A stretch of DNA of 63,540 nt, filler included, from Collodictyon triciliatum (lineage: Eukaryota), in the NCBI GenBank assembly GCA_043381765.1. It is 35 parts of 35 records of this genome, joined end to end, with 100 filler letters (N's around TTAATTAATTAA, not from the genome) between each part and the next. Parts side by side here need not be neighbours in the genome. Positions count along the whole stretch, not along the records: positions 29,196 to 30,914 come from JBHJMP010010366.1; 34 more parts are not named here. One strand, given 5' to 3'. Position numbers and translations under genes: made by a program. Numbering within the stretch: the stretch's first letter is position 1; each line of letters opens with the position of its first letter. Positions 29,196 to 30,574 of this stretch are shown here, piece after piece. Below the pieces are notes generated by a model that saw only the letters and a list, made by a program, of their open reading frames with translations, was not told the origin of the DNA and ran no database searches.

Positions 29196-30574
29196 TTAAA
29201 AGGCAGAGTTACAAAAGTTAAAAAAAGCCATCTTCAAGAAACTCGAAATACCGGAACAATATAAAGGATGGGCTACAACGCATTTGCATCGTATCATTCC
29301 CAGTGATATTGTAAAAAGTATTGAGTATGACGTCAAAGTCAATCTGAATAAGCACATTCCATGTCTGATTTACATGAATCGCATTTTTGAGGACATCGGA
29401 GCCAAACTGTTTTAGCCAATCTCTATAAGAACTACCAATATACCATGTCATATTACTCTAGATATTGCGTGTTTGATAGATATATTAAGATGTATATGGA
29501 AAAACATTATTAATGAAGAATATATCAGGATGCAAAGAGAAATTATATGATGATTTCTTTGAAATGAAAAAGAGGGTCTTTCATCAAAGAGACTACAATT
29601 TCAAATACATGATACAAACAGGCGGCTTGGCGGTGTATTTACTGTTTGAGAAGAAAGGTATTTCAAATTCAAAATCCAATTTAATCAAAAGACCCAAGAA
29701 TGTATTTATATAGATGAACTTTCTGAAGAGCAGTTATCTTTATTAGCGACAAAAAAAAAAAATAGTTGGAGTGGACGCAGGCAAGTTTAATTTGGTTTAC
29801 ATAGCGGATGAGACAGGTAAGAAATCACGTTACACGGCACACCAAAGAAGGCATGATAGCAAATCTCTTAAAAATCACAAAAATACTCTTGCTCGAAAGA
29901 AAAGTACAATGCTCAATGGATATGGATGGCAACATATTTACAAAGTGCTATTTCTTTTGGTCACATGACTTTTGAAGAGAATCAGCAGTTTGAGACATCA
30001 AGAGTATCTTTAATCGATTTAGAGACAAAATTGAGTGAACATAATTCATGCACGGTCAATTATGAAAAATTTCGAAAATATTTATCTATGAAATCAAGAT
30101 ACCAGATAGAATTATCCAGATTTTATGAACACGTTACTTTTCGAAAGATGAGATGGAGACAGTATGTTAATACAAAAAGAAGTGAACAGTTGTATATGAA
30201 CCGAATCGAAAAGACATTTGGCGAGGATGTTGTACTGGCGTATGGAGACTGGAGCAGAAATTGTCCGATTAAACATTTTATGCCAACAATCGGAAGAGGA
30301 TTACGAAAAATACTATCCAAACGTTTTGAAACGGTTAATGTAAATGAATTTAGAACGTCCAAGATGTGCTGCAACTGCGAAAAAGAACTGGAATATATGA
30401 AACCGAAAGGAAATTCAAAAAAAAGTGTATAGATGTCTCATATGTAAAGAATGAAATCGCTCAGAAAGCAAACAAAGTGTATTCCTGACAAGGGACTTTA
30501 ACAGCGCCATAAATATACTCAACAAAGTTCTTTCAATCATTCAAAATATCCATACACCTTCCTCTAAAAAATAG
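29196..30574 (+). pseudogene. Fanzor1 (eukaryotic TnpB-derived RNA-guided nuclease), central and C-terminal part, disrupted
   Basis: IVGVDAG (RuvC-I D 29774), RYTAHQRR, FRKMRWRQYVNTKRSE, FGEDVVLAYGDWS, VNEFRTSKMCCNC (RuvC-II E 30346 plus Zn finger), TRDFNSAINI (RuvC-III D 30494); in-frame TAG at 29413, TGA at 30452 and several frameshifts. Confidence 0.9.

What the first reader, a model, noticed from the sequence alone, without database searches (positions are those of the whole stretch)
29196..30574. Fanzor1 RNA-guided endonuclease family in this protist, with an intact RuvC triad
Seen: motifs in order VGVDAG, RYTAHQRR, W..YVN...SE, GEDVVLAYGDWS, EFRTSK.C..C, RD.NSA.NI, with all three RuvC acidic residues present (D 29774, E 30346, D 30494). 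Established: this motif order defines Fanzor1 proteins such as SpuFz1, which are eukaryotic omegaRNA-guided DNA nucleases derived from TnpB. Inference: this copy is decayed (TAG at 29413, TGA at 30452 replacing the last Zn-finger Cys, frameshifts partly in A-runs), but the family is multi-copy here. An intact or reconstructable member with its own TAM could be a new programmable nuclease.
Basis: partly seen in the sequence, partly recalled or inferred. Interest (0 to 1): 0.85.

Follow-up and report, generated by a model that had tools for sequence, protein, structure and literature searches.

The report
Dead Fanzor1 transposon-nuclease gene copy
This is a broken, non-functional copy of a Fanzor1 gene (an RNA-guided DNA-cutting enzyme carried by jumping genes) from a many-copy family in a eukaryote genome, so it is a new example of a known kind of element rather than a new kind.

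Summary

The sequence is Fanzor1. The 186-aa open stretch hits only Fanzor1 structures in the PDB. A 33-sequence family profile matches SpuFz1 end to end at 2.1e-96. The three acidic residues align with SpuFz1 D383/E541/D606.

This copy is dead:
- It has 5 frameshifts, 2 of them in A-runs.
- It has 3 in-frame stops.
- The DPG and TDG signature motifs are mutated.
- The N-terminal ~172 residues are cut off by the contig start.

The window is an artificial chain of 35 contigs of about 1.7 kb. A second decayed copy, the N-terminal part, lies at 32834-33540 on the minus strand. Two public runs each hold about 290 contig pieces at 80-100% identity, and most lack this copy's lesions. An intact 648-aa relative exists in a metagenome (61% identity). 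The next relatives, at 41-47% identity to that protein, sit in mariner-type elements on giant-virus contigs.

Verdict: a new member of a known kind, of low to moderate interest.

The parts
29196..30914 (.). The short assembly contig that carries the finding, bounded by 100-base linkers at 29096-29195 and 30915-31014
   Evidence: 34 linkers split the window into 35 pieces of about 1.7 kb in descending length
29200..30574 (+). Decayed Fanzor1 coding remnant, colinear with residues 173-630 of the intact relative P0001; the N-terminal ~172 residues are cut off by the contig start
   Evidence: 287/467 identical, 5 frameshifts, 3 stops; PDB hits to PpFz1, SpuFz1, GtFz1
29413..29415 (+). In-frame TAG where P0001 has Q; nearly all other copies read CAA here
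   Evidence: (29413 T>C in 2/2, 2/2, 14/14 and 15/16 contigs of X1, X2, X4, X11; 29415 G>A in all of them)
29488..29492 (+). Frameshift 1 (one extra base, not in a homopolymer)
   Evidence: one base left out at 29492 in 6 contigs of X4 (depth 107.4 of 124.4) and 3 of X11 (36.5 of 116.4)
29618..29626 (+). WED-domain TDG motif, mutated to T-G-G in this copy
   Evidence: 29622 G>A (GGC to GAC, which is D) in 2, 1, 16 and 11 contigs of X1, X2, X4, X11, nearly all the depth; motif named in PMC10711439
29660..29670 (+). Frameshift 2 (two extra bases or one missing)
   Evidence: an A put in behind 29670 in 2 contigs each of X4 and X11
29751..29762 (+). Frameshift 3 inside an A12 run
29774..29782 (+). 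RuvC-I aspartate (29774 GAC) in the VGVD-A-G motif; the family's invariant DPG reads DAG here
   Evidence: aligns with SpuFz1 D383
29883..29905 (+). Frameshift 4 in a poorly conserved, A-rich linker
   Evidence: one search shows several indels and loose ends here in other copies, and their frame could not be resolved
30346..30348 (+). RuvC-II glutamate (NEFRTSK)
   Evidence: aligns with SpuFz1 E541 (chain residue 935 of 8gkh_P, offset 394)
30367..30454 (+). C4 zinc ribbon: Cys codons at 30367, 30376 and 30443, and TGA at 30452 in place of the fourth Cys
30417..30424 (+). Frameshift 5 inside an A8 run
   Evidence: one base left out in only part of the other copies (X4 76.9 of 251.8 depth, X11 83.3 of 216), so many copies share this lesion
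30494..30496 (+). RuvC-III aspartate (RDFNSAINI)
   Evidence: the family's RD column aligns with SpuFz1 D606 (chain residue 1000)
30572..30622 (+). TAG where P0001 has Q, followed by 15 more codons of the ancestral frame up to TGA 30620
   Evidence: 30572 T>C in 3, 7 and 4 contigs of X1, X4, X11
30623..30703 (+). Non-coding 3' tail of the repeat. The right end lies somewhere in 30674-30703. By analogy this would be the guide-RNA scaffold region
   Evidence: cover by other copies falls in bin 30646-30703 and is zero in all four runs from 30704 on. Folds are not significant
30704..30914 (.). Flank outside the repeat (46% G+C against 34% inside)
32834..33540 (-). Second, also decayed copy: the N-terminal part starting MKKRKR at 33540. 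It is colinear with P0001 residues 1-236 (140/232 identical), with 3 frameshifts and a TAA at 33244. It overlaps copy 1 over 197 bases at 87% identity

Best explanation
The stretch is a dead copy (pseudogene) of a Fanzor1 gene from a many-copy, intron-less, apparently Fanzor-only transposon family in a eukaryote genome.

In intact members the roughly 650-aa protein would work in these steps:
1. It enters the nucleus through its basic N-terminus.
2. It binds a guide RNA (omegaRNA) transcribed from the 3' end of its own element.
3. It cuts matching DNA next to a short adjacent motif with a RuvC site made of D (VGVDPG), E (NEFRTSK) and D (RDxN), helped by a C4 zinc ribbon.

This copy keeps the three acidic residues but cannot make that protein. 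It has five frameshifts, three stop codons, a lost zinc-binding Cys and mutated DPG and TDG motifs. The assembled contig also lacks the first ~172 codons.

Shown here: homology, residue alignment, the lesions, and the multi-copy state. Inferred from published Fanzor1 work: RNA guidance, nuclear import, and a role in the element's spread.
For: Homology:
- PDB phmmer with 29872-30429 gave PpFz1 1.8e-12, SpuFz1 1.9e-10 and GtFz1 5.7e-8.
- The intact relative P0001 hit GtFz1 2.1e-28, PpFz1 2.7e-24 and SpuFz1 3.7e-23.
- Profile A1 (33 sequences) gave only 3 PDB hits at E<=0.001, all Fanzor1: 3.6e-98, 2.1e-96 over profile positions 3-603 of 612, and 4.1e-70.
- A Foldseek search with a model of P0001 gave 7 of 7 hits at E<=0.001 to Fanzor1 chains. 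Cas12f, Fanzor2 and TnpB came only at 2e-3 or worse. The model is mediocre (pLDDT 61.7).

Catalytic residues: SpuFz1 D383/N385, E541 and D606 (passage of PMC10432273) correspond to chain residues 777/779, 935 and 1000 of 8gkh_P. These align with the family's invariant D364, E555 and D604. Those in turn are window codons 29774, 30346 and 30494.

Decay: 5 frameshifts and 3 stops. 12 of the 14 invariant columns covered are kept. P365A and E391D are changed, and the near-invariant P221L, W288Y, D313G and C590stop are also changed.

Private lesions: other copies read CAA at 29413-15, C at 30572 and A at 29622, and lack the extra base at 29492.

Multi-copy state: there is a second decayed copy in the window. 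Over 54 shared codons the two copies differ by 5 synonymous and 16 non-synonymous changes, dN/dS 0.72. Runs X4 and X11 hold 294 and 288 laid contig pieces at 80-100% identity.

Standard genetic code: P0001 and 104 relatives are open under table 11. Neighbouring contigs hold stop-free exons of 130-416 codons for kinase, kinesin, RabGAP, RCC1 and fumarase-type genes.
Against: - Two of the five frameshifts lie in A8 and A12 runs and could be homopolymer miscalls of the assembly. No run holding this exact copy was found to check them; the best holder had a 0.10 share of sampled words.
- Both TAGs stand where relatives have Q, which is what a TAG=Q code would give. That reading leaves the TGA and all the frameshifts unexplained.
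- Pfam itself is weak on the pieces: OrfB_IS605 0.0013 and Cas12f1-like_TNB 0.073, both below the curated cut-offs.
- No guide RNA, left end, TIR or target-site duplication was found, so the transposon part of the statement rests on repeat cover and analogy.
- The copy number is not measured. Contig pieces and summed word depth are not copies.
Confidence: 0.88

Rival explanations
1. The gene is intact in the organism, and the breaks are artefacts of a poor assembly and/or of a non-standard genetic code (TAG=Q, TGA read as sense).
For: The contig is one of many contigs of about 1.7 kb in a very fragmented assembly. 2 of the 5 frameshifts are in A8 and A12 runs. Both TAGs align with Q and the TGA aligns with C of P0001.
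Against: Three frameshifts are not in homopolymers. No NCBI code that I know of reads TAG as Q and TGA as C together (recalled, not tested). Other copies carry ordinary CAA/CAG at the TAG sites. Conserved residues are also substituted: DPG to DAG, TDG to TGG, and E391D. The second copy is broken at other places. Host exons and 104 relatives read open under the standard code.
Confidence: 0.05
2. The copies are not host transposons but pieces of an integrated or co-assembled giant-virus genome, since this Fanzor1 clade is common in giant viruses.
For: The nearest relatives with known context lie on IMG/VR giant-virus contigs of up to 254 kb, at 41-47% identity to P0001. In the tree, the window copy and P0001 fall inside a 33-row clade (SH-aLRT 98) that holds 6 of the 9 viral rows. 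One relative is named 'Transposase, viral metagenome' by UniRef.
Against: The two window copies are 13% apart and both are riddled with lesions. Hundreds of diverged pieces at 80-100% identity occur in two runs. That fits an old dispersed repeat family better than one viral genome. No DDE transposase of the viral type is detectable in the window (tblastn best E 6). The G+C of the copies (34%) equals the window's typical value. Neither flank holds a recognisable viral gene, though both flanks are short.
Confidence: 0.06
3. It is a Fanzor2 or a bacterial TnpB/IS605-IS607 remnant (for example from contamination) rather than Fanzor1.
For: A weak OrfB_IS605 match (0.0013) on 29747-29965.
Against: The profile search of the PDB found no TnpB, Fanzor2 or Cas12 chain at E<=0.001. 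In the fold search, Fanzor2 (9b0l) came at 2.3e-2 and TnpB (8h1j) at 4.8e-2, against 5.7e-15 for SpuFz. The protein length (648 aa) and the full-length match to SpuFz1 include the long N-terminal REC part that TnpB lacks.
Confidence: 0.01

Closest known systems
SpuFz1 of Spizellomyces punctatus (Spu-1 elements; PDB 8gkh; PMC10432273, PMC3627910)
   Same: Single intron-less ORF of about 630-650 aa. The profile match is full-length (2.1e-96) and the D/E/D columns are the same. It also occurs as a Fanzor-only, multi-copy element with many partial copies (passages read).
   Different: Sequence identity is only 18-19% in the fold alignment of P0001. Spu-1 has 30-33-bp inverted repeats and a known CATA TAM and omegaRNA. 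Here no inverted repeat, TAM or RNA could be found, and this copy is dead.
PpFz1 (Parasitella parasitica, 9cf0) and GtFz1 (Guillardia theta, 9cer) (PMC11423790; search listing and abstract only)
   Same: These are the best single-sequence PDB hits: PpFz1 1.8e-12 with the window piece and GtFz1 2.1e-28 with P0001.
   Different: Both carry large extra insertions. Their fusion chains are 1259 and 1100 residues with MBP. The match breaks into 2-3 stretches.
Mariner/Tc1-type Fanzor1 elements of giant viruses (PGv-1 type; Bao and Jurka 2013, PMC3627910)
   Same: They are the closest relatives with known context. Loci L002, L004 and L005 carry a Fanzor1 that is 44-47% identical to P0001. It ends about 15 bases before a 33-bp terminal inverted repeat flanked by TA. 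The short 3' tail after the stop is like that of the window copy.
   Different: The viral elements (about 3.3 kb) also carry a 343-aa DDE_3/HTH transposase on the other strand. No trace of it is in the window. The window's tail does not resemble the viral inverted repeat beyond chance (883 of 1000 shuffles score as well).
CMe-1A of Cyanidioschyzon merolae (about 150 copies, about 80% identical to their consensus, no TIRs; PMC3627910, passage read)
   Same: An old, high-copy, mostly decayed Fanzor1-only family without recognisable inverted repeats.
   Different: A different host and lineage. No sequence comparison was made here.

Membership tests
Fanzor1 lineage (membership by descent) | Best profile and fold matches are Fanzor1 over the full length, including the N-terminal REC part, and not TnpB, Fanzor2 or Cas12 | tested here: met
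   only 3 PDB hits at E<=0.001, all Fanzor1; 7 of 7 hits at E<=0.001 are Fanzor1. The window copy pairs with P0001 at SH-aLRT 100.
Fanzor1 lineage (membership by descent) | Bao and Jurka signature D-X(125,275)-[TS][TS]-X-X-C4 zinc finger-X(5,50)-RD (PMC3627910) | tested here: met
   In P0001: D364, then 193 residues, T558-S559, K-L, C562/C565...C587/C590, then 12 residues, R603-D604. The window has the same order and spacing once the frames are followed, except that the fourth Cys codon is TGA.
Fanzor1 lineage (membership by descent) | RuvC D-E-D aligned with SpuFz1 D383, E541 and D606, with the glutamate in the E[FY][RK]TS position | tested here: met
   The window codons are 29774, 30346 and 30494.
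Functional Fanzor1 nuclease | One open reading frame for the whole protein | tested here: not met
   5 frameshifts, 3 in-frame stops, and the N-terminal ~172 codons absent from the contig.
Functional Fanzor1 nuclease | DPG motif at RuvC-I and TDG motif in the WED domain (Yoon et al. 2023, PMC10711439) | tested here: not met
   This copy reads DAG and TGG. P365 is invariant and D313 is at least 90% conserved in A1. Nearly all other copies have GAC (D) at 29621-29623.
Functional Fanzor1 nuclease | Complete C4 zinc ribbon | tested here: not met
   TGA at 30452 replaces C590.
Functional Fanzor1 nuclease | A guide RNA (omegaRNA) encoded at the 3' end that reaches past the element's right end | tested here: inconclusive
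   Folds of 30440-30703 (z -0.70) and 30570-30700 (z -1.31, 23 of 200 shuffles as good) are not significant. Rfam gave 0 matches. No RNA run was available.
Fanzor1-bearing DNA transposon | Defined ends (TIRs or other termini) and target-site duplication | tested here: inconclusive
   The right end is placed only to 30674-30703, by loss of repeat cover. No inverted match was found between copy 1's tail and copy 2's 1-kb 5' flank. The 22-base end motif occurs once in the window. The left end is on neither contig.
Fanzor1-bearing DNA transposon | Associated transposase (here the DDE_3 mariner type of the nearest viral relatives) | tested here: not met
   tblastn of the L005 transposase against the whole window gave a best E of 6. 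This fits a Fanzor-only element, but only about 1 kb upstream of copy 2 could be seen.
Functional Fanzor1 nuclease | N-terminal nuclear localisation signal (Jiang et al. 2023, PMC10530073) | not tested
   P0001 and copy 2 both begin MKKRKR. That this is a classical basic signal is my recollection; no predictor was run.

The most novel reading that the evidence does not exclude
The source organism, probably a freshwater eukaryote, harbours a very high-copy Fanzor1-only family that still has intact, active members. Most other copies lack this copy's private lesions. The lineage is a long separate branch inside a clade otherwise found in mariner-type elements of giant viruses. That would point to virus-host transfer followed by loss of the transposase and a burst of copies in the host. 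An intact member would be a compact (about 650 aa) RNA-guided nuclease with an unknown TAM.
Probability: 0.25. Interest if true: 0.45.

Novelty: new member of a known kind. Interest (0 to 1): 0.25.

Why it matters
This copy matters little in itself. It is one more fossil of a family that has been described since 2013 and shown in 2023 to be an RNA-guided nuclease. The 50%-identity library holds 3147 representatives of it.

Three points are mildly useful:
- It marks a eukaryote genome with a large Fanzor1 family whose other copies look less damaged.
- It ties that family to an intact 648-aa metagenomic relative, and beyond that to mariner/Fanzor1 elements of giant viruses. This bears on how these nucleases move between viruses and hosts.
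- It shows that many copies share the same frameshifts (A8 run at 30417-30424, and near 29670). Broken copies therefore kept multiplying, which fits spread by a transposase supplied in trans.

Tried and rejected
- **Own genome.** None is held for this window, so copies could not be collected from the assembly.
- **Sequencing runs.** No listed holder is on record as RNA, and no run held more than a 0.10 share of the sampled words. X4 and X11 are only guessed to be RNA, so nothing is said about expression. The uncovered part 30704-30914 is used only to place the repeat's end.
- **Variant genetic code.** Considered because both TAGs align with Q and the TGA with C. Rejected for the reasons given under the first rival explanation.
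- **Tiny introns as the cause of the frame changes.** Rejected, because the alignment to P0001 is gap-free at frameshift 1 and nearly so at the others.
- **Programmed or transcriptional slippage at the A-runs.** Not excluded for two sites, but it cannot mend the other three frameshifts or the stops.
- **Inverted repeat between copy 1's 3' tail and copy 2's 5' flank.** Only 7-11-base chance matches.
- **Homology of the window's tail to the 33-bp inverted repeat of the viral relatives.** The MAFFT alignment looked suggestive. However, 883 of 1000 shuffles and 459 of 560 other window segments score as well, so it was rejected.
- **Other matches to the end motif.** The motif occurs only at its own site.
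- **Viral-type transposase in the window.** None found.
- **Rfam and ARAGORN on the whole window.** 0 matches each.
- **RNA folds of the 3' tail.** Not significant.
- **Pfam on the pieces.** Only sub-threshold hits. The local Pfam copy found no family at all on P0001, although the protein database lists PF26935 for it. I do not know that family's name.
- **JGI metagenome scan.** One distant locus at 21% identity. The single-protein scan of viral contigs found none. The 33-sequence alignment was too diverse for a scan, so a 14-sequence one was used.
- **Protein search at 'near' length with the window piece.** Only 3 fragments at 52-75% identity, so there are no annotated paralogues from the source genome.
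- **Earlier notes of this scan.** None on this genome or sequence.
- **Supplementary tables.** Those of the Fanzor papers, which list host species and loci, were not opened. Whether this organism's family is already catalogued there is open.
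Full report
**What the window is.** The 63,540 bases are not one locus. 34 identical 100-base linkers (N44-TTAATTAATTAA-N44) join 35 pieces of about 1.7 kb in descending length. The finding lies on the piece 29196-30914. No whole genome is held for the window. Neighbouring pieces carry ordinary eukaryotic gene fragments: protein kinase, kinesin, RabGAP-TBC, RCC1, a fumarase-type lyase and a subtilase. These have stop-free stretches of 130-416 codons under the standard code.

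**The observation.**
- All six motifs are there in order.
- D is at 29774, E at 30346 and D at 30494.
- TAG is at 29413 and TGA at 30452.
- The 186-aa open stretch 29872-30429 finds only Fanzor1 among 177,635 distinct PDB sequences: Parasitella PpFz1 1.8e-12, Spizellomyces SpuFz1 1.9e-10 and Guillardia GtFz1 5.7e-8. The next hit is at 0.43.
- Pfam alone is weak on the pieces: OrfB_IS605 0.0013 and Cas12f1-like_TNB 0.073, both under the curated cut-offs.

**An intact relative and the lesions.** A search of longer proteins gave P0001, an uninterrupted 648-aa protein from a 2,610-base metagenome contig. I aligned P0001 to the contig while allowing frame changes. The copy is colinear with residues 173-642 at 287 of 467 identical positions.
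- It needs five frame changes: about 29492 (+1), about 29665 (+2), the A12 run 29751-29762 (+1), about 29905 (+2), and the A8 run 30417-30424 (+1).
- It crosses three stops: TAG 29413 and TAG 30572, both Q in P0001, and TGA 30452, which is C590, the last zinc-ribbon Cys.
- After TAG 30572 the ancestral frame runs 15 more codons, to TGA 30620.
- The first ~172 codons are missing because the contig starts inside the gene. Contigs from public runs continue upstream with sequence like that of the second copy.

**Is it Fanzor1, and do the D-E-D residues line up?** P0001 matches all three solved Fanzor1 proteins over most of its length, at 2.1e-28 to 3.7e-23. A library-wide HMMER search with P0001 found 3147 cluster representatives at E<=0.001 and 537 at E<=1e-30. 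An alignment of 33 of them (A1) has 15 invariant columns, among them D364, P365, T312, E555, S559, R603, D604, N606 and N610. As a profile, A1 hits only three PDB sequences at E<=0.001, all Fanzor1: PpFz1 3.6e-98, SpuFz1 2.1e-96 across profile positions 3-603 of 612, and GtFz1 4.1e-70.

Saito et al. name D383, N385, E541 and D606 as the metal-binding residues of SpuFz1 (PMC10432273, passage read). Chain 8gkh_P carries a 394-residue fusion offset. Counting along the printed alignments gives three matches:
- D383 (chain 777) pairs with D364.
- E541 (chain 935) pairs with E555.
- D606 (chain 1000) pairs with the RD column.

Through the alignment these are window codons 29774, 30346 and 30494.

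An AlphaFold model of P0001 is only moderate (pLDDT 61.7, pTM 0.51). Even so, its seven Foldseek matches at E<=0.001 are all Fanzor1 chains. Cas12f, Fanzor2 and TnpB follow at 2e-3 or worse.

**How dead is this copy?** Beyond the frameshifts and stops, 2 of the 14 invariant columns it covers are changed: P365A, which turns the DPG signature into DAG, and E391D. Four near-invariant columns are changed as well: P221L, W288Y, D313G (the WED-domain TDG motif becomes TGG) and C590stop. DPG and TDG are named as Fanzor signatures by Yoon et al. (PMC10711439, passages read). The "intact triad" is therefore true but does not mean an intact enzyme.

**Multi-copy family.** A second copy lies on another piece, at 32834-33540 on the minus strand.
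- It begins MKKRKR and is colinear with P0001 residues 1-236 (140 of 232 identical).
- It has three frameshifts and a TAA.
- It overlaps copy 1 over 197 bases at 87% identity.
- Over the 54 shared codons there are 5 synonymous and 16 non-synonymous differences, giving dN/dS 0.72. That is close to neutral drift, though the sample is small.

No public run holds this exact contig; the best share of sampled words is 0.10. I laid Logan contigs of four runs on it at 80% likeness or more. That gave 80, 10, 294 and 288 pieces for X1, X2, X4 and X11. In X4 and X11, 29 and 30 of these are at 99% or more. Cover runs from 29196 to about 30700 and is zero in all four runs from 30704 to 30914.

Other copies mostly lack this copy's private lesions:
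- 29413 T>C together with 29415 G>A, which gives CAA, in 2/2, 2/2, 14/14 and 15/16 contigs.
- 30572 T>C in 3, 7 and 4 contigs of X1, X4 and X11.
- 29622 G>A, which restores TDG, in nearly all the depth.
- One base missing at 29492 in 6 contigs of X4 and 3 of X11.

By contrast, the frame-restoring variants at 29670 and in the A8 run are in the minority in X4 (54 of 234.8 and 76.9 of 251.8 depth), and the A8-run variant also in X11 (83.3 of 216); at 29670 the frame-restoring variant holds most of the depth in X11 (67.6 of 99.3). So many copies share those two frameshifts, which means broken copies went on multiplying.

Limits of this evidence:
- The pieces are contigs, not reads.
- Depth is not copy number.
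- 408 further differences were not shown, so the state of TGA 30452 and of the A12 run in other copies is unknown.
- Whether X4 and X11 are RNA is a guess.

**Genetic code and sequencing error.** The two TAGs at Q positions and the TGA at a Cys position prompted a check for a variant code. I know of no NCBI code that reads TAG as Q and TGA as C together (recalled). Other copies use plain CAA/CAG at the TAG sites. P0001 and 104 relatives are open under table 11. Host exons are long and stop-free. No code mends a frameshift. The two A-run frameshifts could be homopolymer miscalls. The other three cannot easily be, and the alignment to P0001 has no gap at frameshift 1, which excludes a small intron there.

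**Element structure and relatives.** The repeat's right end lies between 30674 and 30703. That is about 55-80 bases after the ancestral stop at 30620.

I found no significant RNA structure there. The fold of 30440-30703 has z -0.70, and that of 30570-30700 has z -1.31, although three hairpins are drawn. Rfam gave no match.

The left end is on neither contig. There is no inverted match between copy 1's tail and the 1 kb upstream of copy 2. The terminal 22-mer occurs only once in the window.

Full-length relatives other than P0001 are at most 46% identical to it. Ten loci on IMG/VR viral contigs carry relatives at 41-47% identity. Several of these contigs are named as giant-virus MAGs, and they reach 254 kb.

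In a quick maximum-likelihood tree (67 rows, LG+G4, SH-aLRT only), the window copy and P0001 are sisters (100). They lie in a 33-row clade (98) that holds 6 of the 9 viral rows. The metagenomic rows have no known host, so no direction of transfer can be read from the tree.

In L002, L004 and L005 the Fanzor gene lies in an element of about 3.3 kb with 33-bp terminal inverted repeats flanked by TA. On the other strand sits a 343-aa DDE_3/HTH transposase. This is the mariner/Fanzor1 type that Bao and Jurka described (PMC3627910, passages read).

The window shows no trace of that transposase. Its tail is no more like the viral repeat than shuffled sequence is. The host family therefore looks Fanzor-only, like Spu-1 or CMe-1A, but only about 1 kb upstream of one copy could be inspected.

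**Mechanism.** Shown here: descent from Fanzor1, the catalytic columns, the decay, and the repeat nature. Inferred from the literature read: intact members would be nuclear, omegaRNA-guided double-strand DNA nucleases whose guide is transcribed across the element's right end. This copy can at most contribute a fragmentary transcript.

**Verdict.** The object is a fossil of a well-known family, so it is a new member of a known kind. The prospect of a new editor rests on other copies that were not seen whole. Earlier notes of this scan on other genomes describe several similar decayed Fanzor1 relics. They were used only as context.

Noticed in passing
window 1-63540: The window is an artificial chain of 35 assembly pieces of about 1.7 kb, sorted by length and joined by N44-TTAATTAATTAA-N44 linkers. 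Neighbouring 'genes' are therefore not neighbours in the genome.
   Followed up: yes
window 39225-39971, 15571-16328, 58214-59027: A second, unrelated repeat family is shared by three pieces (77-87% identity over 740-810 bases). It includes a 182-aa open frame (39452-39997, minus strand) with no Pfam match.
   Followed up: partly
window 36469-38184: This piece has 51% G+C, against about 33% elsewhere. It carries a 292-aa subtilase (Peptidase_S8, 3.1e-46) in one open frame. It may come from a different source or be a G+C-rich gene.
   Followed up: no
L005 1127-4449 (identical in L003 and L010), L002 1131-4452, L004: Giant-virus contigs carry a complete mariner-type element of about 3.3 kb. It has 33-bp inverted repeats flanked by TA, a 343-aa DDE_3/HTH transposase on one strand and an open 634-aa Fanzor1 on the other. 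The same locus is 100% identical on three contigs of 57, 173 and 82 kb.
   Followed up: partly
window 34340-34440 (upstream of copy 2, minus strand): Two copies of an approximately 20-base direct repeat lie about 65 bases apart, next to an (ATT)n microsatellite that runs to the end of the piece at 34551. ARAGORN finds no tRNA.
   Followed up: no
window 28995-29095: The piece before the finding ends in a T-run of about 100 bases. Many pieces end in or hold long simple repeats, which probably explains why the assembly broke there.
   Followed up: no
L007 and L008, 723-2067: Internal tandem-like repeats with a period of about 200 bases (68-74% identity) lie upstream of the Fanzor gene on these viral contigs, in place of the transposase.
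   Followed up: no
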